DNA of 64,000 nt from Eledone cirrhosa. Taxonomy: Eukaryota. The first letter of the stretch is position 1. Each line of letters opens with the position of its first letter. The notes under the pieces are model-generated. The model searched no databases. It was not told the origin of the DNA and saw nothing but the letters and a program-made list of their open reading frames with translations. Below, piece after piece: positions 56 to 62,500 of this stretch. The stretch covers positions 132,477 to 196,476 of the forward strand of contig CAXHJY010001117.1 of NCBI GenBank assembly GCA_964016885.1, in the 5' to 3' direction. The position numbers and the translations under genes are program-made.

Positions 56-1902
56 TTAGCCATGCTTATCAACGAAATGTACCAAATGCTTTGACAGAAT
101 TCCTCTGTAGTTGACATCATGCTGACGGATTACCCTTGAACAGAAACATTGAAGAGAACAGTATCGTAATGGATTGGATATTAATTCGCAAAACTGGAGA
201 TATTCCAAGCCAGAATTGCCATTACTATTGACGATATCAACATGGCATCCGTAGTTTAGTAAACACGATAAAACTTCCATTTGATGTTGTGAAGGGTCTT
301 GAATAGCGTAATGTATAGCGGTACTGCCTTGGCTGTCGACTGCATTCACGTCAGCTCCGCATTTCAGAAGGGTTTCAACTACACATGCTGGTTGGTACAT
401 TTGGATTGCAAGATGAATGAGGCTCGTCTGGTTGGTGCCATGAGGCTGATGTAGGATTAATTCTCGTAGACTTTTTTCGAAAGCTTTTCTTTCGGATTCA
501 TCTAAGGGATAGGTCAGTACAAACTCCACCAAATCAAGAATTTCTATAAGAAGTCGTTCCAAATCTGGCAATCTCTGCAGAGTTATATCTTTGTCTTGTC
601 CTCTCAGGTATGGAATGACATGAGAACATATATAATTTATGAAGCAATGGAATATCGGTGTCACGTGATGGGTGCTCATATTATTGGTAAGTATTGTATG
701 CATCAGTATCGATGTAAACGTTTCGATTACATCAAGAATATCATTTTGAAGTGGATCCGGAAAATGTTCACAGAATATCAAAAGGCCATATAGCAACTGC
801 ATGCTGGAATGAAATTCACAACGTTTGATATGATGGCATGTTTTCTTCATAAATGACTTGATAGTAGTTGGATGTTTAGGGCCTAGGATTCGTGACTGCA
901 CCAACAAACCTTGAATCCACATTGCATTAGCATCAGAAGCGATTTGGTTCAGTTGTTCATTGTTTGTAAATTCTTCACCGATAATATTAACAATGGCTAA
1001 ATTATGACTCGGTAGTAGTTTGTTAATCACTCCTAAACTAGGTTCACCGTACCGTAACTGCAAAGCTTTCAACCAACATACCATCACTTGTTCAGCATTG
1101 TAAATTAAATGATAATCCATCGCAAATTGACTCCCTAGGAGTTCGTAAGCCGATATTATTGCTTCACGATCGTATTGATCTGTGGCTATCAGGTATTCCA
1201 TTATAGGAAGCTTACAATGGATAGCTGATAATTCCAAAGGCGTCGTCCCGTATTTGCTTCTCCTCAAAATATCTGAATTTTGTTTAACGAAAAGGTCGAC
1301 AGTTTTCAACTGTCCTCTTTTTATTGCGAAATGGAGGGCGTCCTGTCCTTTTTGGTCTACCTTATTGACATCTGCACCCAAAGACAGCAATCTACGGCAT
1401 ATGTGAGTATGCTGGGTTGAATTCATTAGACAGGTCCGTCCTTTAGGATCAGGTATATCAATATCAGCTCCTTGCTCTACCAAAAATCTAAGAATTTTAG
1501 AATTTCTACAACTGACACTAATCGCGCTTTTGCCAGAACTTGCTTGTGTGTTTATATTAGCGCCACGCTTCGCTAAAGTAACCACAACATAAAAATGGTT
1601 ACGCAATGCAGCAATCCAGAGAGGGGTGCATTTGATACCTACGTATGTACCCCGTTGTTCGATATTAGCATCACATTGGTCGAGAAAATAATTGATTAAG
1701 CTCACGTTACCCACATACGATGCCGTGAAAAAGAGAGGACAACCGTTTATTTTCAATGACACAATCATATATCGTTGCTTTAAATTGTATTTTCTCAATG
1801 CATTCTTGACTTTTGAAACGCTGTTCTCCCTGCTGAATTCCGTTAACAGTCTAGCAAGTTTTCTTCTTCCAGACAATTTCGAAATATCGAACTTGCATCC
1901 AG
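56..1902 (-). CDS. fem-1: FEM-1-like ankyrin-repeat protein (CRL2 substrate-adaptor family), copy 1; large terminal coding exon
   Basis: N-terminal ankyrin repeats ([41 protein letters not shown]), FEM1-type 'AYELLGS' and '[10 protein letters not shown]' motifs, two C-terminal ankyrins and a '[10 protein letters not shown]...LVHFVDKH' VHL-box-like end. The ORF-track start is TTG. A pyrimidine tract plus ctacAG acceptor lies at 1904-1903, and AATAAA at 29-24 (minus) follows the stop. Confidence 0.85.
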
Positions 1903-1989
1903 CTGTAGAAGAAACATTTCGTAGAAAAATAAAAGGAAATAATAATAGAGAAGAAATAAATACTAAATCTTAGATTATTTACGTAGAAA

Positions 1990-4947: not shown

Positions 4948-6794
4948 TTAGCCATGCTTATCAACGAAATAAACCAAATGTTTCGATAGGATGTGTTTGT
5001 AAATGAGATTATGCTGGCGAATGACTCGAGCACAGAAACACTGTAGTGTGCAATGATGTAAAGGGTTTGATATTAATTTGCAAAACTGTAGATATTCCAA
5101 ACCAGAGTAGCCATTACTGTTGACGATATCAACATGGCAGCCGTGGCTTAGCAAACACGACAAAATTTCCATTTGATGTTGTGAAGAATACTGAATTGCA
5201 TAATGTATAGCAGTGTTTCCCTCACTATCGACAGCATTCACATCAGCTCCGCATTTCAGAAGTAATTCAATCACATACACGGGCTGATACATTCGAATTG
5301 AGAGTTGTAAAAGGCTGGTCTGGTTTGTACCACGGGGATGATGACGTATAAGTTGACGTAAGCTGCTTTTAAATTCCTTCGACTGTGATTCGACCAACGG
5401 GAAGTTCAACAGAAATTCAAGTAAGTCGAGAATTTCGACTAAAAATCTCTCAAAATCTGGTAATTTCTGTAGATTATCATTTAAACTTTGGTTTTTCAGA
5501 AATGGAATGACATGTGAACATATGAAATTTGTGAAACAATGGAAAATACGAAAGATGTAGTGTGTACTCATATTATATGCTAATATCGTGTGCATCAGCA
5601 TCGATGTGAAAGTCCCTATTATATCGAGTATATCATTTTGAAGTGGGTCCAAGTATTGTCCAAAGAAAATAAATATGCAATAAAGCAGTTGCATGCTTTG
5701 ATGGAAGTCACTTCGGTTGATGTGAAAACATATTTTCTTCATAAAAGACTTGATAGTAGTTGGATGTTTGGGACCGAGGATTCGTGACTGAATTAACAGA
5801 GCTTGAGTCCACATTGCATTAGCGTCGGGAGACATTTGATTAAGTTGTTCATTGTTTGTAAATTCATCTCCAATAATATTAACGATGGCTAAATGATGAC
5901 TTGGTAAAGCTTTATTAATCGGTGACAAACCAGAATCTCCGTAACGTAACTGTAAAGTTTTCAACCAACATACCATCACTTGTTCTGCATTGTAAATTAA
6001 ATGATAATCCATCGCAAACTGACTACCTAGGAGTTCATAAGCCGATATTATAGCTTCACGATCATATTGATTTGTGGAGATGAGGTATTCCAATATGGCC
6101 GGCTTACAATGGATGGCAGATAGCTCTAAAGGTGTAGTACCGTTTATATCTTTTCTTAAAAGATTAGATTCGTTTCTTACGAATAAATCAACAGTTTTCA
6201 ACTGTCCTCGTTTTATTGCGAAATGTAGAGCGTCTTGTCCCTTATGATCTACGCTGTTAACATTTGCTCCCAATGTTAACAGACGACGACATATATTCGA
6301 ATGCTGGGACAAATACATGAGACAGGTACGACCTTTTAAATCCGGCATATCAATATCTGCTCCTTGCTGGACAAGAAACCTTACAATCTTGGCATTTCTA
6401 CAGCTAACGCTGACTGCACTTTTACCAGAATTTGCTCGAGTGTTAACATCAGCTCCATGTTCAACTAAACTCACCACCACATAAAAATGGTTACGTAAAG
6501 CTGCAATCCAAAGCGGGGTACACTTAATCCCCACGTATGTACCACGCTGTTCAACGTGGGCATCGCATTGGTCAAGGAAATAGTTGACGAGACTCACGTT
6601 ACCTGCTTGCGATGCAGCGAATATTAAGGGGCAGCTGTTTATTTTCAAAGACACAATCATAAATCGTTGCTTCACGGTGTATCTGTTCAAAGTATTTTTC
6701 ACTTTTGCCACGTTATTCTGCCTGATAAATTCATTCAAAAGGCTCGCAATTTTTCTTCTTCCGGATAGTTTCGAGGCATCGAACTTCCGTCCCG
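4948..6794 (-). CDS. fem-1: FEM-1-like ankyrin-repeat protein, copy 2 (tandem paralogue); large terminal coding exon
   Basis: Colinear and gap-free with copy 1, with the same motifs (TLQCFCARVI...LVYFVDKHG). The ORF-track start is TTG. Acceptor caacAG at 6796-6795; acceptor to stop is 1847 nt, as in copy 1. The start of the 3' UTR is also conserved. Confidence 0.85.
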
Positions 6795-7079
6795 CTGTTG
6801 AAACATTCCGTAGAATAGAAAGAAGACGAATACGAGTGAACAACAAGGAATCCAAGAGAGACGACGGTTTAGAAAAAAAACTTATCTACCTATTCCGAAA
6901 CATTACGAAATGCGTCAGCTCAAAAAAATATTTTTCTAACATATGTATTTGTATTTACGAGGACCGGCGCCTGAAAATCTCATAGCGGCTATGTTTAAAA
7001 ATATACCCCATTTTGTCTTGTCAGTTGGCCCTTCCATGACAGTATCTTGATCAGCCTGTGACCTTTTAAACCTACCCTC

Positions 7080-24417: not shown

Positions 24418-25433
24418 CATCATCTATATTAATGACATCACTGACATCATCAAACACAGCAACATTAAAATTTTCGCTGATGATTCCAAGCTCCAAAAGG
24501 TCATCAATGGCGTGGATGACCGATAAGCCTTCAGTCAGACCTACTGGCTGTTACCCAATGGGCAGAAAAGAACAACATGTTACTGAACTAAGACAAATTC
24601 GAACTGATCCACTTTGGAAAAGAGGATGCTCTGAAACTCCCGTACTCCCTTCCCTCCGGGGAAACTCTCGTGGCATCTAACAACATCAGAGACTTGGGAG
24701 TAACCGTGGACAGCAACATAAGCTGGACCACGCATATAAGCAGCAAAGTTGACATGGCCCGCAGAATGTGTTCCTGGATCCTCAGAACCTTCCAGTCGAG
24801 AGATTCCCGCACCATTATCCTTCTCTTCTCTACTTTCGCCCGACCACACCTTGAATACTGTTGTCCACTGTGGTCTCCCCACACGAAACAAAGTATCATG
24901 AAACTTGAAGCTCCTCAAAGGGCAATCACGAAAAAGATAGATGGCATGTCAGACCTTGACTACTGGGGTCGATTAGTAAACCTGAAACTTTACTCACTCC
25001 AACGTCGCCGTGAGCGTTATATTATCTGCATGATGTGGAAAATGTTCCATCATCACTGCCCAAATGATGTTGGCATCGCCTTCAAGATACACCCAAGGCT
25101 TGGGCCCCGTGCTATCCGTCCCATTCAAAAATCTAAATCGCAACTCATAACAACAATACGGCACAATTATTTCACCTCAATCGGCCCTGCTCTCTTCAAC
25201 ATCACACCAGGACACGTCAAAACAGAAACTGACCACACAAAATTCAAGAAGTCTTTGGACAAATTCCTCCAAGTAATCCCGGACAACCACCCACACCCGA
25301 TATGTCTCCGCAAACAGTAATTCTCTTCTCGAATGGGCCATGGTGCCCAAATCCTGAATTGAAAGACTTCGCCAGGTGGTGCTATTAAGTTAGACATGGC
25401 CTGGGCCAATACTGGCCAAAACATTCAAAGTTA
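24418..25433 (+). mobile_element. 5'-truncated CR1-group LINE (RT C-terminal part plus 3' UTR), disrupted
   Basis: [39 protein letters not shown]. Near-identical to 59513-60542 but with a stop and indels; ends 'ttcaaagttat'. Confidence 0.9.
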
Positions 25434-26545: not shown

Positions 26546-27547
26546 CATCATCTATATTAATGACATCACTGACATCATCAAACACAGCAACATTAAAATT
26601 TTCGCTGATGATTCCAAGCTCCAAAAGGTCATCAATGGCGTGGATGACCGATAAGCCTTCAGTCAGACCTACTGGCTGTTACCCAATGGGCAGAAAAGAA
26701 CAACATGTTACTGAACTAAGACAAATTCGAACTGATCCACTTTGGAAAAGAGGATGCTCTGAAACTCCCGTACTCCCTTCCCTCCGGGGAAACTCTCGTG
26801 GCATCTAACAACATCAGAGACTTGGGAGTAACCGTGGACAGCAACATAAGCTGGACCACGCATATAAGCAGCAAAGTTGACATGGCCCGCAGAATGTGTT
26901 CCTGGATCCTCAGAACCTTCCAGTCGAGAGATTCCCGCACCATTATCCTTCTCTTCTCTACTTTCGCCCGACCACACCTTGAATACTGTTGTCCACTGTG
27001 GTCTCCCCACACGAAACAAAGTATCATGAAACTTGAAGCTCCTCAAAGGGCAATCACGAAAAAGATAGATGGCATGTCAGACCTTGACTACTGGGGTCGA
27101 TTAGTAAACCTGAAACTTTACTCACTCCAACGTCGCCGTGAGCGTTATATTATCTGCATGATGTGGAAAATGTTCCATCATCACTGCCCAAATGATGTTG
27201 GCATCGCCTTCAAGATACACCCAAGGCTTGGGCCCCGTGCTATCCGTCCCATTCAAAAATCTAAATCGCAACTCATAACAACAATACGGCACAATTATTT
27301 CACCTCAATCGGCCCTGCTCTCTTCAACATCACACCAGGACACGTCAAAACAGAAACTGACCACACAAAATTCAAGAAGTCTTTGGACAAATTCCTCCAA
27401 GTAATCCCGGACAAACCACCCACACCCGGATATGTCTCCGCAAACAGTAATTCTCTTCTCGAATGGGCCATGGTGCCCAAATCCTGAATTGAAAGACTTC
27501 GCCAGGTGGTGCTATTAAGTTAGACATGGCCTGGGCCTCAAAGTTAT
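26546..27547 (+). mobile_element. Second copy of the same 5'-truncated CR1-group LINE (part of a 2128-bp tandem duplication)
   Basis: Same truncation point, same internal stop and same about 260-bp upstream flank (24157 vs 26285). Confidence 0.9.
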
Positions 27548-46520: not shown

Positions 46521-47772
46521 GTGCAGTCGTCCCTAAATTTCAACATCAGACAAAGTGTTGCTCCAGTATGGACACATGGTTATAGACAGAACCAGTAAAG
46601 CAAAACAAATATTAGAAACATATAAAGATGTTTGTTGGCTGTAACTACTGAGACGATGTATCTGGAATGCCAGAGGCGATATTATGTGAATATTTATTCA
46701 AGAATTCTAACGCCTTATTTACACTCCAGTTCATATGCGTTATTTTCATGTGTTTATCTTCCATTGCCGGGTGATTGTGTTGGAATTAAAAAACAACAAA
46801 CCTTTTGACATAAAACGTAATGTTGAACTACAATATTGTCTAATATTATTCTTGACAGCGTCGGTAGAGCGACGGACGACATACCTTGCGGCTGCATACG
46901 ATATACTGTTACGCATTTTTACATTCTGAGATCAAAATTCAAAACCTTCTACCCTTGAAATTGTTGGATTTGCACCTACATCACTGAATCTTTTAAATAT
47001 ATATATATATATATACATACATATATATATACATACATACATATATATATATATATACATACATATATATATATATACACATACATATATATATATATAC
47101 ACATACATATATATATATATACACATACATATATATATATATACATACATATATATATATATACATACATATATATATATATACATACATATATATATAT
47201 ATACATACATACATACATATATACATACATACATACATATATATATATACATACATATATATATATACATACATATATATATATACATACATATATATAT
47301 ATACATACATACATATATATATATACATATATATATATACATACATACATATATATATATACATACATACATATACATACATACATATATATATATACAT
47401 ACATATATATATATACATACATATATATATATATACATACATATATATATATATACATACATATATATATATATACATACATACATACATATATACATAC
47501 ATACATACATATATATATATACATACATATATATACATATATATATATATACATATATATATACATACATATATATATACATATATATATACATACATAT
47601 ATATATATATATACATACATATATATATACATACATATATATATACATACATATATATACATATATATATATATACATATATATATATACATACATATAT
47701 ATATATATATACATACATACATATATACATACATACATATATATATATATATACATACATATATATATATAC

Positions 47773-47819
<47 letters not shown>

Positions 47820-47856
47820 CATATATATATATACATATATATACATATATATATAT

Positions 47857-47887
<31 letters not shown>

Positions 47888-47912
47888 CATATATATACAT
47901 ATATATATATAC

Positions 47913-47959
<47 letters not shown>

Positions 47960-47972
47960 CATATATATATAT

Positions 47973-48003
<31 letters not shown>

Positions 48004-48200
48004 CATACATATATATACATATATATATATATATACATACTGGAATAAATGCTCTGAAATAGCGATATATATGTGAATATAGACACAGAATATTCGAAAA
48101 TATTCTGTATGTTTATAATAAACATTTTGAAGACCTAATCGCTATAGAATAGAATACGTCACGTATTACAATTAGATTCTCGATAAAAGCAAGGGAAGTA

Positions 48201-48239
48201 AGTCTACGCGTTTCATTCTTGTTAGAATTCATCAGGACT
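48201..48239 (-). ncRNA. The same hammerhead on the minus strand (second copy 48512-48550)
   Basis: Exact reverse complement of 48845-48883. Confidence 0.9.
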
Positions 48240-48844
48240 ACATATCCAGTGCTTTTATCGAGAATGACACAGCTAGAGACTTATAGAATACTTAGCTGTG
48301 TACAGGAACTGGTTTGAAAGAGCGGTTGCCGGTCCGGCAGAAATTAGAAATTGGAATAAATGCTCTGAAATAGCGATATATATGTGAATATAGACACAGA
48401 ATATTCGAAAATATTCTGTATGTTTATAATAAACATTTTGAAGACCTAATCGCTATAGAATAGAATACGTCACGTATTACAATTAGATTCTCGATAAAAG
48501 CAAGGGAAGTAAGTCTACGCGTTTCATTCTTGTTAGAATTCATCAGGACTACATATCCAGTGCTTTTATCGAGAATGACACAGCTAGAGACTTATAGAAT
48601 ACTTAGCTGTGTACAGGAACTGGTTTGAAAGAGCGGTTGCCGGTCCGGCAGAAATTAGAAATTGGAATAAATGCTCTGAAATAGCGATATATATGTGAAT
48701 ATAGACACAGAATATTCGAAAATATTCTGTATGTTTATAATAAACATTTTGCCGGCAACCGCTCTTTCAAACCAGTTCCTGTACACAGCTAAGTATTCTA
48801 TAAGTCTCTAGCTGTGTCATTCTCGATAAAAGCACTGGATATGT

Positions 48845-48883
48845 AGTCCTGATGAATTCTAACAAGAATGAAACGCGTAGACT
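48845..48883 (+). ncRNA. Minimal type-I hammerhead ribozyme (first of 8 plus copies; others at +311 steps to 51022-51060)
   Basis: AGTC-CTGATGA-ATTC taacaa GAAT-GAAA-CGCG-TA|GACT. Complete core, stem I AGTC/GACT, stem II ATTC/GAAT, palindromic stem III ACGCGT; predicted cleavage after GUA at 48879. Confidence 0.92.
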
Positions 48884-51808
48884 TACTTCCCTTGCTTTTA
48901 TCGAGAATCTAATTGTAATACGTGACGTATTCTATTCTATAGCGATTAGGTCTTCAAAATGTTTATTATAAACATACAGAATATTTTCGAATATTCTGTG
49001 TCTATATTCACATATATATCGCTATTTCAGAGCATTTATTCCAATTTCTAATTTCTGCCGGACCGGCAACCGCTCTTTCAAACCAGTTCCTGTACACAGC
49101 TAAGTATTCTATAAGTCTCTAGCTGTGTCATTCTCGATAAAAGCACTGGATATGTAGTCCTGATGAATTCTAACAAGAATGAAACGCGTAGACTTACTTC
49201 CCTTGCTTTTATCGAGAATCTAATTGTAATACGTGACGTATTCTATTCTATAGCGATTAGGTCTTCAAAATGTTTATTATAAACATACAGAATATTTTCG
49301 AATATTCTGTGTCTATATTCACATATATATCGCTATTTCAGAGCATTTATTCCAATTTCTAATTTCTGCCGGACCGGCAACCGCTCTTTCAAACCAGTTC
49401 CTGTACACAGCTAAGTATTCTATAAGTCTCTAGCTGTGTCATTCTCGATAAAAGCACTGGATATGTAGTCCTGATGAATTCTAACAAGAATGAAACGCGT
49501 AGACTTACTTCCCTTGCTTTTATCGAGAATCTAATTGTAATACGTGACGTATTCTATTCTATAGCGATTAGGTCTTCAAAATGTTTATTATAAACATACA
49601 GAATATTTTCGAATATTCTGTGTCTATATTCACATATATATCGCTATTTCAGAGCATTTATTCCAATTTCTAATTTCTGCCGGACCGGCAACCGCTCTTT
49701 CAAACCAGTTCCTGTACACAGCTAAGTATTCTATAAGTCTCTAGCTGTGTCATTCTCGATAAAAGCACTGGATATGTAGTCCTGATGAATTCTAACAAGA
49801 ATGAAACGCGTAGACTTACTTCCCTTGCTTTTATCGAGAATCTAATTGTAATACGTGACGTATTCTATTCTATAGCGATTAGGTCTTCAAAATGTTTATT
49901 ATAAACATACAGAATATTTTCGAATATTCTGTGTCTATATTCACATATATATCGCTATTTCAGAGCATTTATTCCAATTTCTAATTTCTGCCGGACCGGC
50001 AACCGCTCTTTCAAACCAGTTCCTGTACACAGCTAAGTATTCTATAAGTCTCTAGCTGTGTCATTCTCGATAAAAGCACTGGATATGTAGTCCTGATGAA
50101 TTCTAACAAGAATGAAACGCGTAGACTTACTTCCCTTGCTTTTATCGAGAATCTAATTGTAATACGTGACGTATTCTATTCTATAGCGATTAGGTCTTCA
50201 AAATGTTTATTATAAACATACAGAATATTTTCGAATATTCTGTGTCTATATTCACATATATATCGCTATTTCAGAGCATTTATTCCAATTTCTAATTTCT
50301 GCCGGACCGGCAACCGCTCTTTCAAACCAGTTCCTGTACACAGCTAAGTATTCTATAAGTCTCTAGCTGTGTCATTCTCGATAAAAGCACTGGATATGTA
50401 GTCCTGATGAATTCTAACAAGAATGAAACGCGTAGACTTACTTCCCTTGCTTTTATCGAGAATCTAATTGTAATACGTGACGTATTCTATTCTATAGCGA
50501 TTAGGTCTTCAAAATGTTTATTATAAACATACAGAATATTTTCGAATATTCTGTGTCTATATTCACATATATATCGCTATTTCAGAGCATTTATTCCAAT
50601 TTCTAATTTCTGCCGGACCGGCAACCGCTCTTTCAAACCAGTTCCTGTACACAGCTAAGTATTCTATAAGTCTCTAGCTGTGTCATTCTCGATAAAAGCA
50701 CTGGATATGTAGTCCTGATGAATTCTAACAAGAATGAAACGCGTAGACTTACTTCCCTTGCTTTTATCGAGAATCTAATTGTAATACGTGACGTATTCTA
50801 TTCTATAGCGATTAGGTCTTCAAAATGTTTATTATAAACATACAGAATATTTTCGAATATTCTGTGTCTATATTCACATATATATCGCTATTTCAGAGCA
50901 TTTATTCCAATTTCTAATTTCTGCCGGACCGGCAACCGCTCTTTCAAACCAGTTCCTGTACACAGCTAAGTATTCTATAAGTCTCTAGCTGTGTCATTCT
51001 CGATAAAAGCACTGGATATGTAGTCCTGATGAATTCTAACAAGAATGAAACGCGTAGACTTACTTCCCTTGCTTTTATCGAGAATCTAATTGTAATACGT
51101 GACGTATTCTATTCTATAGCGATTAGGTCTTCAAAATGTTTATTATAAACATACAGAATATTTTCGAATATTCTGTGTCTATATTCACATATATACATAC
51201 ATATATATACATATATATATATATATACATACATATATATACATATATATATATACATATATATATATACATATACATACATATATATATATATATACAT
51301 ACATATACATATATATATATATATACATACATATACATATATATATATATATACATACATATACATATATATATATATATACATACATATACATATATAT
51401 ATATATATACATACATATACATATATATATATACATACATATACATATATATATATACATACATATACATATATATATATATATACATACATACATATAC
51501 ATATATATATATACATATACATATATATATATATATACATACATACATATACATATATATATATACATATATATACATACATACATATATATATACATAC
51601 ATATATATATACATACATATATATATACATACATATATACATACATATATATATACATACATACATACATACATATATACATACATACATACATATATAT
51701 ATACATACATATATACATACATACATACATATATATATACATACATATATACATACATATATATATACATACATATATATATACATACATATATACATAC
51801 ATACATAT

Positions 51809-51839
<31 letters not shown>

Positions 51840-51857
51840 CATACATATATACATACA

Positions 51858-51923
<66 letters not shown>

Positions 51924-52226
51924 CATACATATATATATATATATATATACATACATATATATATACATACATATATATATACATACATATATATATATAT
52001 ATATATACATACATATATATATACATACATATATATATACATACATATATATATATATATATATACATACATATATATATATATATATATACATACATAT
52101 ATATATACATACATATATATATACATACATATATATATACATACATATATATATACATACATACATACATATATACATACATACATATATACATACATAC
52201 ATATATATATATATACATATATATAC

Positions 52227-52279
<53 letters not shown>

Positions 52280-52285
52280 CATACA

Positions 52286-52326
<41 letters not shown>

Positions 52327-52593
52327 ACATACATATATATATATATACATACATATATATATATATACATACATATATATATATATACAGACATAGATAT
52401 ATATACATACATATATATATATACATACATATATATATATACATACATATATATATATACATACATAGATATATATACATACATATATATATATACATAC
52501 ATATATATATATACATACATATATATATATACATACATATATATATATACATACATATATATATATACATACATATATATATATACATACATA

Positions 52594-52741
<148 letters not shown>

Positions 52742-52746
52742 CATAC

Positions 52747-52823
<77 letters not shown>

Positions 52824-52899
52824 CATATATATACCTACATATATATACATATATATACCTACATATATATACATATATATACCTACATATATATACATA

Positions 52900-52998
52900 C
52901 ATACATGATGGCTGCCCCCTCGTTATCGAGTATGGCCATTGCACAATAAAAAAAAAAAAAAATAAATAAAATAAAACAAAACAAAACAAAAAAAAAAA

Positions 52999-53195: not shown

Positions 53196-55272
53196 GATAG
53201 CAACTAACAGTGCTGCGATCGAATGTGGCTTTTTAGCCCAGCCAATGATCCAAAATGTCTTGCACAGAGTCGGCAACCAAAACATTTACTGGGAATAGTC
53301 GGCTGTGGTTGGAGTTCGTGTACTTTTGCATGTCGCTTGAGTCCTCCTGCTGATTTACATTCTCTACCACATGTTTGGCAAGCATGATGAGTAGCATCTC
53401 CAACAGCAGCCTGGTAGTCAACCACTGGTCTTACTTTATGACTGCGAAGATGACTTTCGAGTCCAGCTTTGCTTAGGCAGAGTCTCGCACAGACGCTGCA
53501 TGTCAGAAACATAGGAGGACCCTCGCCGTCTGGAAGTGCAACAGCAATACCCTTCCTCACGTCCCGCTTTACTTTCTCGTGTGCGATTCGAGATGCCTCA
53601 AAGGCAACTTTTCCCTCATATACAGTCTTTCTCCATTTATTACGATCAGCAGCAATATTTTCCCATGTATCAGCAGAGATGTTAGCGTCTTTCAGAGAGG
53701 CCTTCAAGGAATCCTTATACCTCTTTTTTGGTTTATGTGGCGGTCGTTTTCCTTTAACCAACTCTCCATAGAAGAGTTGTTTTGGTATTCTAGAATCCTT
53801 CATCCTGGCAAGGTGACCACTCCAACGGAGTCGCTGCTTAAGCACAAGAGCTTCTATACTGTCACACATAGAGCTTTCCAAAATCTCGACATCACTGATG
53901 TGGTCCCTCCAGTGAACGCCATGTATCCGTCTGAGACACATCTGATGGAAACGCTCCAATTGCTCAAGGTGGCGTCGATATGTGACCCAGGTCTCGCAGG
54001 CATAAAGAAGACAAGAGAGTACACATGCCCTGTACACCTTTACCTTTGTCCTCCTGCATATGTCTCGCCGACCCCAGAGTCGCCTTTCTAGCTTTCCGAA
54101 AGCATCACTTGCTTTCCTAATCCTAAGTGAGATTTCACTGTCAAGGTTGCCGTATCGATTGACAGTGCTTCCCAGGTAGACAAACTGATCAACCACTCCA
54201 AGTCGTTTGCCATACACATAGATGTTTGGTTCAGTGTACTGCCTACCAGGTGCAGGTTGGTACATGACGACGGTTTTCTTGAGACTGACAGTCAAACCCA
54301 GGGCAGTGCAAGCGTCAGAAAATACATTCAAAATGTGCTGCATATCACTCTCTGTGTGCGCTACAAGATCGCAATCATCTGCATACAAGAGGTCTCTTAT
54401 GACTGATGTAAATACTTTTGTCTTCGCAGCAAAGCGCCTGATGTTAAATATGCTGCCTGAGGTTCGATATCGGATGTAAACACCATGCTCGCAATTCCTG
54501 AATGCAACACAGAAAACCATTGCAAAGTATATGGCAAACAGGGTCGGTGCTGGAATATCCCCCTGTTTCACTCCATTTTTTACTGAGATAGGCTCCGACA
54601 TGTTACCTCCGACATTAACCCAAGCCTTCATGTCGTCATGGAAAGACCTAACTAAAGCAAGGAACTTATCAGGGCAACCAAGTTTCTGGAGAACCTTCCA
54701 TAATGCATCTCTGTTGACAGTATCGAAAGCCTTTGTCAGATCGACAAAAACCTGATACAGATCCAAGCCCTGTTCAATGCACTTCTCCTGGAGCTGTCTA
54801 GCTGAGAAGATCATATCAGTAGTGCCGCGTCCAACACGAAAACCAGATTGACTTTCAGGAAGGACACAATCTGCAATGTGTGTCAGCAGACGGTCCAGAA
54901 GTACCCTACATAAAACTTTCCCCACGACAGAAAGCAATGATATACCTCTGTAGTTCCCGCAATCATTCCTGTTACCCTTTCCCTTGTACAAGACCACCAT
55001 TACTGCATCTCTCCAGTCCTCAGGCACGGATTCATTAGCCCATATCCCTCCAAACAGAGAGTGAAGATGTTGCAGGAGTCTCTCACCACCATATTGTAGG
55101 AGCTCAGCATGTATGCCATCCATACCTGGAGATCTTCCACTGTTCAGCTTCGAAATAGCCACTGCAACCTCCACAAGTGTCGGAGGCTCTGCGAGAGCTA
55201 CTTTCACAGGACTTTCCGGAATGAGATTGAGGAAATCTTCACTGACGACAGACGGCTGATTCAAAAGATCAT
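52900..55272 (-). mobile_element. 5'-truncated RTE-clade LINE; RT ORF 55272-53204 with three C-terminal C2H2 fingers
   Basis: NYRGISLLS, ESQSGFR, FVDLTKAFD, GVKQG, LLYADD, FVYLGS, LRWSGHLARM..RIPKQLFYGEL; CxxC..HxxxH three times. The 3' UTR is broken by microsatellites and ends 'ggcagccatc(atgt)n'. Confidence 0.93.
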
Positions 55273-55319
55273 ACATACATATATATATATATACCTACAT
55301 ATATATACATACATACATA

Positions 55320-59512: not shown

Positions 59513-62500
59513 TAACTTTGAATAACTTTGAAATGTTGTGGCCAGTATTGGCCCAGGCCATGTCTAACTTAATAGCACCACCTGGCGAAGTCTTTCAATT
59601 CAGGATTTGGGCACCATGGCCCATTCGAGAAGGGAATTACTGTTTGCGGAGACATATCCGGGTGTGGGTGGTTTGTCCGGGATTACTTGGAGGAATTTGT
59701 CCAAAGACTTCTTGAATTTTGTGTGGTCAGTTTCTGTTTTGACGTGTCCTGGTGTGATGTTGAAGAGAGCAGGGCCGATTGAGGTGAAATAATTGTGCCG
59801 TATTGTTGTTATGAGTTGCGATTTAGATTTTTGAATGGGACGGATAGCACGGGGCCCAAGCCTTGGGTGTATCTTGAAGGCGATGCCAACATCATTTGGG
59901 CAGTGATGATGGAACATTTTCCACATCATGCAGATAATATAACGCTCACGGCGACGTTGGAGTGAGTAAAGTTTCAGGTTTTCCAATCGACCCCAGTAGT
60001 CAAGGTCTGACATGCCATCTATCTTTTTCGTGATTGCCCTTTGAGGAGCTTCAAGTTTCATGATACTTTGTTTCGTGTGGGGAGACCACAGTGGACAACA
60101 GTATTCAAGGTGTGGTCGGGCGAAAGTAGAGAAGAGAAGGATAATGGTGCGGGAATCTCTCGACTGGAAGGTTCTGAGGATCCAGGAACACATTCTGCGG
60201 GCCATGTCAACTTTGCTGCTTATATGCGTGGTCCAGCTTATGTTGCTGTCCACGGTTACTCCCAAGTCTCTGATGTTGTTAGATGCCACGAGAGTTTCCC
60301 CGGAGGGAAGGGAGTACGGGAGTTTCAGAGCATCCTCTTTTCCAAAGTGGATCAGTTCGAATTTGTCTTCGTTCAGTAACATGTTGTTCTTTTCTGCCCA
60401 TTGGGTAACAGCCAGTAGGTCTGACTGAAGGCTTATCCGGTCATCCACGCCATTGATGACCTTTTGGAGCTTGGAATCATCAGCGAAAATTTTAATGTTG
60501 CTGTGTTTGATGATGTCAGTGATGTCATTAATATAGATGATGAAGAGAAGTGGGCCCAACACAGTGCCTTGTGGGACTCCACTACTGACTTTGGCTGGGC
60601 TTGATTTGACTCCCTCAACTACAACATGTTGGGTTCTGTTTGACAGGAAGCTCTTGATCCACTGCAGCAGCTTTCCAGTGACACCAATATTGGACAGCTT
60701 TCTCAGTAGAATGTTATGATCAACCCTGTCAAAGGCCTTGCTGAAATCAAGGTAGATAACATCAGTGTTGGAACCCTCTCCCAAGGCTCTCAAAATGTCA
60801 TCAAAGTGATGCAGTAGTTGCGTCAGGCAATCCCTTCCATTACGGAATCCATGCTGGTTGGAGTTCAGCATATTGTTACTCTCAAGGAAGTGGGTCATTC
60901 GCGATCTCACCACTCGCTCAAATACCTTAATGATATGAGAGGTGAGTGAGATTGGACGGTAATTCACGGCAAGGGATTTGTTTCCCTTTTTGAAAACTGG
61001 GACAACAGACTGGGATAGAAGGTTTTCTGGCACATATCCAGCATCCAGTGAGTTCCGCCACAGATTGGCAAGAGGAGAAGCAAGTTGGTGTTGACACGCC
61101 TTCAAGACACAAGCAGGGAACCTATCGGGACCTACTGCTGAATTATGCTTGATTTCCTTTATTGCCGCCAAGACATCAGGGGCGCCAAACGTTATGTCCG
61201 ATAAGGTGTAATGGGGAGTAACATCGCCGATACAGCCCAGATCGGCCATATCAGGATTGCTGAAAACAGAGCAGTATTGTTTCTGCAGTATCTCACCCAT
61301 GGTTTTAGCATTGTCTTGAAGAGTGCCATTTTCATCAATTAGAGGGCCAACAGTAGAGCCAGTGATTTTGTGTTTTTTTGCAAATGAAAAGATCACTTTG
61401 GGATTGAGTTTGATCTTCTCAATGGCCCAGGCCTCTTCAGCTCTTCTCTGATTGTTGATGAGGGACATTATGTTGTTTTGGAGGTTATGTTTTTTAATCT
61501 CTAGTGATGAAATGGCAGTCAAGTTGATGTGTTGCTGCTGACAGTATTTCAGATTGTTGATTTTTTTGTTCGTTCTCTTAATTTTTCTGATGAGCGTTTT
61601 TCTATTTCTAGGGATTCTGCTCTTAGATTTGTTTATAGTTCTTAATGGGGTGTGTTTAGCACATATGTTTGTAACAGTGTCCACAAATGTCTGCCAGGAC
61701 TTTTTGATGTTAGTGGGTGTATGAGTGTGCGTGAAGGACCAGTCGACATGTGCAAGATCATGACTGATCGCTTCCCAGTTTGCATTGTGGAAATCCATAG
61801 CGTCAAACGGATGGACAGGAGAAATGACATTGGGTTTGTATATTGGACGGTGGAATCTCAGATCACAGAGAACCATGTCATGATCAGAGAGTAGAGTTTT
61901 CTCCACTGCAATATTGTGGATATTGTCAGTGTGATTGCTGAAAATTAAGTCTAGGACGTTTTTGTGGCACCTCGTTGGTTCGAGCACTAGTTGGGATAGG
62001 AAGAAATCATCCATGAAGTCAAGAAGCGATTCCACAGCTTCCCTGTCAGAGGTTGAGGCAGAAGAACCTGGTGGCAGGGTGTTTGTGGACCAGTCAACTC
62101 CGGGGAGGTTGAAGTCCCCCATCATTAAGATGTTGTCAGGGTGACACTCTTGGATGAAACACTTTATGCTGTTGAGGCATTCCTTGAAGCATGGTACAGG
62201 CGTTTGGGGTGGCCTATAGAGCCCAACTACTAATAGGTTGTTGGTTTGACTGAATACAGTGACTGCCTCACAGTATCCATTAGTGAATATGTTCATAGCC
62301 TCTGTTGAGAAAGAATTATGGACATAAATGGCAGTTCCGCCCTTTCTTCTGCCAGCGCGATCAGCACGGATGGCTTTGAAATTTTTCACTTTCACCTCGG
62401 CTTCCAAGTGGAGGTTACTGAGATGGGTTTCAGTGAGGACGAAGAAAGGGATGTGGTTTGGATGGACATCAATCCAGTCCTCCAGGAATTTGATCTTCCA

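What the first reader, a model, noticed from the sequence alone, without database searches (positions are those of the whole stretch)
48663..48780. Divergent inversion inside the ribozyme array: twin priming on a rolling-circle template
Seen: minus units read outward to the left from 48751 and plus units read outward to the right from 48752. The junction forms the palindrome TTGCCGGCAA at the unit's own TGCCGGACCGGCA hairpin. Both outer ends are partial units at unrelated registers, and the right end merges into the microsatellite by microhomology (CACATATATA). Established: this geometry is produced by twin priming in target-primed reverse transcription, and inverted 5' segments are common in Penelope-like insertions. 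Inference: two cDNAs went round a circular RNA about 2.3 and 7.9 times in one event. A transcript across the centre would also form about 700 bp of dsRNA, a possible endo-siRNA source.
Basis: partly seen in the sequence, partly recalled or inferred. Interest (0 to 1): 0.75.

Follow-up and report, generated by a model that had tools for sequence, protein, structure and literature searches.

The report
Penelope-style inverted retrozyme array insertion
Ten identical copies of a 311-base repeat with a hammerhead-ribozyme motif sit head-to-head (2.3 reversed, 7.9 forward) in an AT microsatellite of a probable octopus, with ends like those left by Penelope-type retrotransposons, so the array was likely pasted in by one reverse-transcription event primed from both cut DNA strands, probably on a circular RNA.

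Summary
The geometry is real. A 711-bp reversed arm (48041-48751) and a 2444-bp forward arm (48752-51195) of one 311-bp hammerhead unit are 100% identical and meet at a 10-bp palindrome. First, the array is flanked by a 44-bp duplication (47997-48040 = 51189-51232; chance 2-7% in such microsatellites). Second, the outer ends are not at unrelated registers. They lie 25-32 nt apart on the unit, like the 30-40-nt 'tail' of Penelope-like elements (PLEs). A head-to-head inversion, a junction palindrome, a one-sided tail and a (TA)n target are the published PLE insertion pattern. Best reading (0.55): a non-LTR retrozyme was inserted once by PLE machinery, with both target strands primed. A circular template is likely but not shown. 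cDNA fold-back and later array expansion remain rivals. The junction was not seen in the four runs laid, which probably are not the source sample. One run shows hyper-editing-like changes on both strands of the family, from other copies where the allele could be read. Verdict: a known kind of element and a known PLE signature; the combination is a useful test case for how retrozyme arrays arise. Interest 0.45.

The parts
46997..48040 (.). Left half of the (AT/ATAC)n target microsatellite; C only on the + strand (113 C, 0 G)
47997..48040 (+). Left copy of the 44-bp candidate target-site duplication
   Evidence: nulls
48041..48751 (-). Inverted arm, 711 bp, 2.3 units (sense idx204 at the junction, idx292 at the outer end); two hammerhead cores (48546, 48235)
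48041..48072 (-). 'Tail': 25-32 nt (idx261/268-292) present at the outer end of the inverted arm but not at the outer end of the direct arm
   Evidence: compared with PMC3846280, PMC8557442, PMC11167929
48749..48758 (.). 10-bp palindrome spanning the inversion junction (48751|48752)
48752..51195 (+). Direct arm, 2444 bp, 7.9 identical 311-bp units; eight hammerhead cores
48843..48886 (+). Type I hammerhead motif of the first unit (intact core, 6-bp stem I with one bulge, 5-bp stem II, minimal palindromic stem III); predicted cut at 48879|48880
   Evidence: Rfam HH9 only 17.8 bits against gathering 52
48975..49000 (+). Long hairpin (idx224-249) just 5' of the right-end register; a divergent contig keeps it with two compensatory pairs and a different tetraloop
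   Evidence: table 7 compared by eye
49056..49068 (+). GC hairpin of the unit (idx305-317), at whose loop the plus arm begins
51189..51232 (+). Right copy of the 44-bp duplication; its first 7 nt also match unit idx261-267 (microhomology), so the duplication is 37-44 bp
51196..52903 (.). Right half of the target microsatellite, same strand polarity as the left (220 C, 3 G)

Best explanation
This is a head-to-head array of a hammerhead-bearing non-coding repeat (a non-LTR retrozyme), likely inserted in one very recent event by a Penelope-like element's enzyme that would have nicked both strands of an AT microsatellite and primed reverse transcription from both nicks, probably on a circular RNA. 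Shown: the geometry, the perfect identity of the units, the hammerhead motif, the registers of the ends and the 44-bp duplication. Inferred: (1) Staggered nicks 37-44 bp apart. (2) The bottom-strand nick primed at unit idx260-267 and copied 2444 nt; the top-strand nick primed at idx292 without homology and copied 711 nt. These would be the two PLE start sites that define the 'tail'. (3) The long cDNA stopped in the GC hairpin 8-19 nt before the second start site. Its palindromic end gained 3 nt by fold-back and annealed to the other cDNA, giving the 10-bp palindrome. (4) The template was a 311-nt circle copied repeatedly by strand displacement (about 0.6, given steps 1-3), rather than an uncleaved linear multimer.
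For: Exact arms, 0 differences in 3155 bp, so divergence since insertion is below about 0.1%. The 44-mer occurs exactly twice in 64 kb, and both copies abut the array. Flanks have the same polarity. The outer ends are 25-32 nt apart (chance 0.10 for 25-40 nt). PLE insertions carry an adjacent inverted 5'-truncated copy, a 30-40-bp tail at one end and (TA)n targets (PMC8557442), with a 31-bp tail and junction palindromes in Adineta (PMC3846280). A purified PLE protein nicks and extends both strands, and starts at two internal RNA sites whose spacing is the tail, without homology (PMC11167929). Here the left end has no primer homology, and the right end falls in a small predicted stem-loop with a CA-containing loop. 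For a single template: all units share three differences from the majority form in run X1, one of them rare there (G at 48998; A in 547,831 of 549,463 depth). No arm end or junction lies at the hammerhead cut site (idx128|129), which argues against jumping between cut linear monomers. For a circle: the minimal stem III is the type said to cleave efficiently in multimers (PMC4209133, PMC7229834), so a linear 8-mer RNA would be unstable, and the predicted circular monomer leaves the hammerhead unblocked.
Against: One locus only. The duplication is less rare than the first null suggested: single cuts in this window's microsatellites show a match of 37 bp or more in 1075 of 16,028 cases (6.7%), and 324 of 16,028 (2.0%) when the string occurs only twice. 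It is also longer than the 8-10-bp PLE duplications in PMC3846280. Both register coincidences are post hoc and modest (0.10 and 0.064). Among the 12 of 43 loose ends shown, none lies at idx260-267 or idx292. The one 3' end into (AT)n is at idx301, and the one other inversion junction (sense start near idx188) is not near idx292. This locus's own junction was not listed. No PLE partner was found in the window. The Anolis PLE used uncleaved RNA in vitro and its hammerhead needed protein, so a linear multimer is not excluded. Run X1 may be another individual or species, so the 'rare allele' may be the window's local majority. No cleavage, circle or transcript of this locus was tested.
Confidence: 0.55

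Rival explanations
1. Single-primed TPRT with cDNA fold-back (self-priming). One cDNA of 7.9 units stalled at the GC hairpin, snapped back onto itself through 3 nt of microhomology about 200 nt upstream, copied 711 nt of itself, and then jumped to the other target end.
For: The junction palindrome (1.2-1.8% by chance) and the 3-nt match are what self-priming leaves. Self-priming was proposed for PLE head-to-head inversions (PMC3846280). The left arm is the exact reverse complement of 48955-49665 with a 203-bp spacer. There is no primer homology at the left end. The other inversion junction in X1 sits on an 8-nt inverted repeat of the unit (compared by eye).
Against: It leaves the left end at a random register, so the tail-like 25-32-nt offset and the 8-19-nt gap to the plus-arm start would both be chance (0.10 and 0.064). 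PLE protein extends both strands in vitro.
Confidence: 0.22
2. A short PLE-type insertion (about one unit per arm, already inverted) was later expanded in place by unequal exchange or slippage, so the 2.3 and 7.9 copies are not turns around a circle.
For: Whole-unit expansion keeps all ends unchanged, so the sequence cannot exclude it. Local amplification is the route proposed by Li et al. 2026. The flanking microsatellites are themselves unstable.
Against: There are no differences among units, and the 44-mer is still exact inside an unstable microsatellite. Eight units would have had to be added within a very short time.
Confidence: 0.12
3. L1-type twin priming by a LINE enzyme (for example the RTE-like element nearby), with the second primer invading just ahead of the first reverse transcriptase on a linear multimer.
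For: The left end lies 8-19 nt before the plus-arm start. The arm ratio is 3.4, against a mean of 2.6 in L1 inversions (10.1101/2024.08.27.596794). An RT-encoding LINE fragment lies at 53204-55294.
Against: There is no poly(A) or LINE-type 3' end. There is no microhomology at the internal primer, although 5'-inverted L1 junctions depend on it most (PMC2912911). A type I hammerhead, tail and palindrome are PLE traits.
Confidence: 0.07
4. Assembly artefact from a fold-back or chimeric long read, or a collapsed repeat.
For: The arms are perfectly identical. The junction was not seen in the 4 of 24 runs laid. Unit counts in perfect arrays can be wrong.
Against: The inversion stops at the array and the flanks keep one polarity. 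The junction is offset by 203 nt rather than mirrored. The ends are bounded by a duplication and follow a biological (PLE) pattern.
Confidence: 0.04

Closest known systems
Metazoan non-LTR retrozymes (Cervera & de la Pena 2020, PMC7229834; Li, Clavereau & Pollet 2026, 10.64898/2026.07.22.740005)
   Same: Non-coding tandem unit of 170-400 nt (311 here), GC below 50%, one type I hammerhead per unit, self-paired predicted circle with the ribozyme unblocked, apparently very high copy number, duplication longer than 4 bp.
   Different: Head-to-head inversion with palindrome and tail. Term searches of these two texts found no inverted arrays described. Host probably an octopus ('octopus' 0 occurrences in both). 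Cleavage and circles not tested here.
Penelope-like element insertions (Arkhipova 2013, PMC3846280; Craig 2021, PMC8557442; Frangieh 2024, PMC11167929)
   Same: Inverted 5'-truncated copy adjacent to the direct copy, junction palindrome, one-sided tail of about 30 nt, AT-microsatellite target, type I hammerhead, priming without homology at one end.
   Different: No ORF. The arms are multimers of a 311-nt unit rather than pLTR-ORF-pLTR. The duplication is 37-44 bp against 8-10 bp in Adineta. No autonomous partner was identified.
L1 twin priming (as described in PMC2912911 and 10.1101/2024.08.27.596794)
   Same: Inverted 5' part plus direct 3' part, flanking duplication, short gap between the two pieces on the template, direct arm longer.
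   Different: No poly(A); no microhomology at the internal primer; periodic template, so adjacency is known only modulo 311 nt.

Membership tests
non-LTR retrozyme | Tandem non-coding units of about 150-450 bp, low GC | tested here: met
   311-bp units; GC about 0.34; no non-repeat ORF listed in the array
non-LTR retrozyme | Type I hammerhead in every unit | tested here: met
   Core and stems I-III present in 10 of 10 full copies; Rfam HH9 hit is below gathering (17.8 vs 52 bits), so this rests on the motif anatomy
non-LTR retrozyme | Self-cleavage and circular RNA in vivo | not testable with these tools
   No RNA holder on record; contigs cannot show circles
non-LTR retrozyme | Dispersed multi-copy family | tested here: met
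   721 contigs laid in X1 with summed word depth of 1e5-7.6e5 over most bins and distinct flanks; X1 may not be the window's individual
PLE-type insertion signature | Head-to-head inverted 5'-truncated copy adjacent to the direct copy | tested here: met
PLE-type insertion signature | 30-40-bp tail at one end | tested here: inconclusive
   Offset 25-32 nt; chance 0.10; fixed start sites not seen among 12 of 43 loose ends shown
PLE-type insertion signature | Palindrome at the inverted junction | tested here: met
   10 bp; 1.8% of 80,860 simulated junctions
PLE-type insertion signature | AT-rich or (TA)n target, optional duplication | tested here: met
   duplication chance 2-7%
Penelope-like element (autonomous) | RT plus GIY-YIG ORF | tested here: not met
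   No such ORF in the array; the only RT hit among the 5 proteins scanned is a LINE fragment without GIY-YIG
PLE-derived element | Homology of the unit to a PLE pLTR | not testable with these tools
   No host genome is held
L1-type twin priming | Microhomology at the internal (second) primer | tested here: not met
L1-type twin priming | Inverted and direct pieces adjacent on the template | tested here: inconclusive
   Gap of 8-19 nt modulo 311; chance 0.064

The most novel reading that the evidence does not exclude
A genomic record of rolling-circle reverse transcription in an animal. Both nicked target strands primed on one 311-nt retrozyme circle at the two Penelope start sites. The first enzyme circled about 7.9 times by strand displacement and halted on meeting the second initiation complex 8-19 nt ahead, which then circled 2.3 times. 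Retrozyme arrays would thus be born whole by PLE enzymes rather than by satellite expansion, and their inverted copies would feed a hyper-edited dsRNA pool.
Probability: 0.25. Interest if true: 0.65.

Novelty: new variant of a known kind. Interest (0 to 1): 0.45.

Why it matters
Two routes to retrozyme arrays are in print: reverse transcription around a circle by PLE enzymes (PMC7229834, PMC4209133) and local satellite-like amplification of a PLE end (Li et al. 2026). The evidence so far is co-occurrence and phylogeny. A young array with the full PLE end signature, a target duplication and ten identical units is structural evidence for mobilisation by PLEs. It makes the question testable by surveying array ends in one genome, and it links the in vitro two-start-site result to the unexplained PLE inversions. 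It is one locus, and each component is already known, which limits the surprise.

Tried and rejected
No host genome is held, so no survey of arrays or PLE partners was possible. Rfam at gathering gave 0 hits in the window; at E-value level only weak HH9 and chance hits appeared. Pattern scans found 0 loci in metagenome contigs and viral contigs. No RNA holder listed; this is no evidence on expression. Run X23 laid 0 of 12.8 million reads: no test. My first duplication null (random pairs of cuts; 0.009 and 0.0003) was too lenient to my reading, because these microsatellites contain local tandem duplications; replace it (2-7%). Depth profiles of contigs were not interpreted, as they cannot show RNA ends. 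The sigma-70 scan is irrelevant to a eukaryote. Jumping between hammerhead-cut monomers was rejected because no break lies at idx128|129 and the units are identical. Our-findings look-ups by place, sequence and first word set were empty.

Full report
OBSERVATION. Unit positions (idx) count from 48752. Tandem Repeats Finder reports two 311-bp arrays, 48041-48751 (2.3 copies) and 48752-51195 (7.9 copies), both at 100% identity, inside an (AT/ATAC)n microsatellite of 46997-52903. Exact extension shows that the left arm is the reverse complement of the unit, from idx204 at the junction to idx292 at the outer end, and that the right arm runs from idx1 to idx267, with no mismatch in either. The 5' ends meet head-to-head at 48751|48752 in a 10-bp palindrome at the loop of the unit's GC hairpin. 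Such a palindrome spans 1.8% of 80,860 simulated junctions. The host is probably an octopus: a fem-1-like protein of the window has Octopus sinensis as its best named hit at 66% identity (1 of 3 hits).

THE UNIT. Each full copy (8 plus, 2 minus) has a type I hammerhead motif: intact core, stem I of 6 bp with one bulge, stem II of 5 bp, a minimal palindromic stem III, and a predicted cut after idx128. Rfam gives only a sub-threshold HH9 match (17.8 bits, gathering 52). The unit folds well (z -5.5, 0 of 100 shuffles as good), and as a circle it leaves the ribozyme unblocked, as described for animal retrozymes (PMC7229834). In one search the majority one-base deletion at 48882 keeps stem I paired (reasoned by hand). 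A divergent X14 contig keeps the idx224-249 hairpin with two compensatory pairs and another tetraloop (by eye). This fits a non-LTR retrozyme; cleavage and circles are untested.

(a) The 44 bases left of the array (47997-48040) recur at 51189-51232 and nowhere else in the window. The first 7 also match unit idx261-267, so the duplication is 37-44 bp. My first null (0.009 and 0.0003) was too favourable. Single cuts in 12 microsatellite stretches give a match of 37 bp or more in 1075 of 16,028 cases, and in 324 of 16,028 with a two-copy string. A target duplication is therefore likely, not certain. (b) The outer ends are idx292 and idx260-267, 25-32 nt apart (chance 0.10 for 25-40 nt). The left end is also 19 nt before the plus-arm start (chance 0.064), or 8 nt if the junction is read as an imperfect 6-nt anneal at idx300-306 plus a 5-nt slip (and inspection). 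The left end has no primer homology.

MECHANISM. PLE insertions typically have an inverted 5'-truncated copy next to the direct copy, a 30-40-bp tail at one end and (TA)n targets (PMC8557442). In Adineta the tail is 31 bp, duplications are 8-10 bp, and palindromes at inverted junctions are common and attributed to self-priming (PMC3846280). A purified Anolis PLE protein nicks and extends both strands of AT-rich DNA and starts at two internal RNA sites, without homology, whose spacing is the tail (PMC11167929). Every element of that pattern is present here. I infer that both nicks primed, at idx260-267 and idx292, that the cDNAs ran 2444 and 711 nt, and that they were joined through 3 nt added by fold-back at the palindromic end of the long cDNA (0.55). 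For one template: all units share three differences from the X1 majority (48856, 48882, 48998; the window's G at 48998 is about 0.3% of depth), though X1 may be another individual or species. For a circle: no break lies at the cut site; minimal-stem-III hammerheads cleave as dimers in multimers (PMC4209133; PMC7229834); and copying round a circle was proposed in both papers. Against a circle: the Anolis PLE used uncleaved RNA, and whole-unit expansion after insertion (Li et al.) leaves the same ends. Pure fold-back uses the same 3-nt microhomology and cannot be excluded in a periodic sequence (0.22).

READ DATA. 20 of 24 listed runs hold part of the unit (16 studies, 17 organism labels). I laid 4 of them on one plain unit: X1 721 contigs, X14 196, X5 1, X23 0. 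The only joint in table 5 is the tandem joint, and 12 of 43 loose ends are shown. This locus's junction is not among them, so it is unverified; the laid runs mostly carry other alleles. X1 shows one other antisense-to-sense junction (at 48939, on an 8-nt inverted repeat; one contig, possibly a library artefact) and one 3' end into (AT)n at idx301 (2 contigs). Neither matches this locus's registers, which counts mildly against fixed start sites. An assembly artefact is unlikely, because the flanks keep one polarity, the junction is offset rather than mirrored, and the ends are bounded by the duplication.

dsRNA. The left arm pairs perfectly with 48955-49665 and four later registers. Both arms point outward, so only outside read-through would cross the centre (inference). 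In X14, 5 of 8 listed substitutions are A>G. Three of the six loose ends shown differ from the window almost only by T>C: 10 of 10 differences at 49010-49039, 6 of 7 at 48982-49003 and 4 of 5 at 48997-49007 (by eye). This is the pattern ADAR hyper-editing of both strands would give (own knowledge; editing papers seen only as a listing). X14's kind is not on record and no matched DNA exists, so this is a lead. The two pieces that cover 48998 carry the majority allele, so they come from other copies; the third does not reach that site. It supports family-level dsRNA, not siRNA from this locus.

NOVELTY. Retrozymes and the PLE signature are both known. An inverted, tailed, duplication-flanked retrozyme multimer was not found in searches, or in term searches of the two retrozyme papers. 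The library lacks most subscription papers, and supplements (for example Fig. S9 of PMC7229834 and those of the 2026 preprint) were not read and may show such cases. What I saw of each paper: 10.64898/2026.07.22.740005, part 1 of 5, the Discussion and passages; PMC7229834, sections 13 and 17 and passages; PMC8557442, section 15 and passages; PMC11167929, parts 1-2 of 4 and passages; PMC3846280, section 11 and passages; PMC4209133, PMC2912911, 10.1101/2024.08.27.596794, PMC8969392 and PMC6431247, passages only.

VERDICT. The structure is real and likely a single young PLE-mediated insertion of a retrozyme multimer. Double priming is favoured, and the circle is plausible but unproven. New variant of a known kind; interest 0.45.

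Noticed in passing
runs X14 and X1 laid on window 48821-49131: Dense T>C and A>G changes in X14 (10 of 12 T in one 30-nt piece) that are not listed for X1: hyper-editing-like on both strands of the retrozyme family, from majority-allele copies where the allele could be read; run kind not on record.
   Followed up: partly
run X5: 17 organism labels in 16 studies hold 39-71% of the unit's words. X5 (another label) has a single closed 340-nt contig at depth 34 with only two differences. Trace DNA of a very high-copy repeat, related species or horizontal spread: unexplained.
   Followed up: no
window 48975-49000; X14 loose ends before 48996 and 49003: A divergent family member keeps this hairpin by two compensatory pairs and swaps a UUCG-type loop for a GNRA-type loop; candidate protein-recognition element just 5' of the presumed RT start.
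   Followed up: partly
window 56-1969 and 4948-6885 (minus): Two tandem fem-1-like ankyrin genes with long uninterrupted frames.
   Followed up: partly
window 53204-55294 (minus): 696-aa LINE fragment with RT and C-terminal C2H2 fingers; RTE-like by recollection, not tested.
   Followed up: partly
window 24580-25320, 26708-27487, about 59600-60430: Three near-identical 3' fragments of a CR1/L2-like LINE (label recalled; no Pfam hit for the two scanned); two are in tandem about 2.1 kb apart with microsatellite between them.
   Followed up: no
X1 table 5c, 48948 to 48927: A family copy with a 19-nt microsatellite-like insert flanked by a 22-nt duplication of the unit.
   Followed up: no
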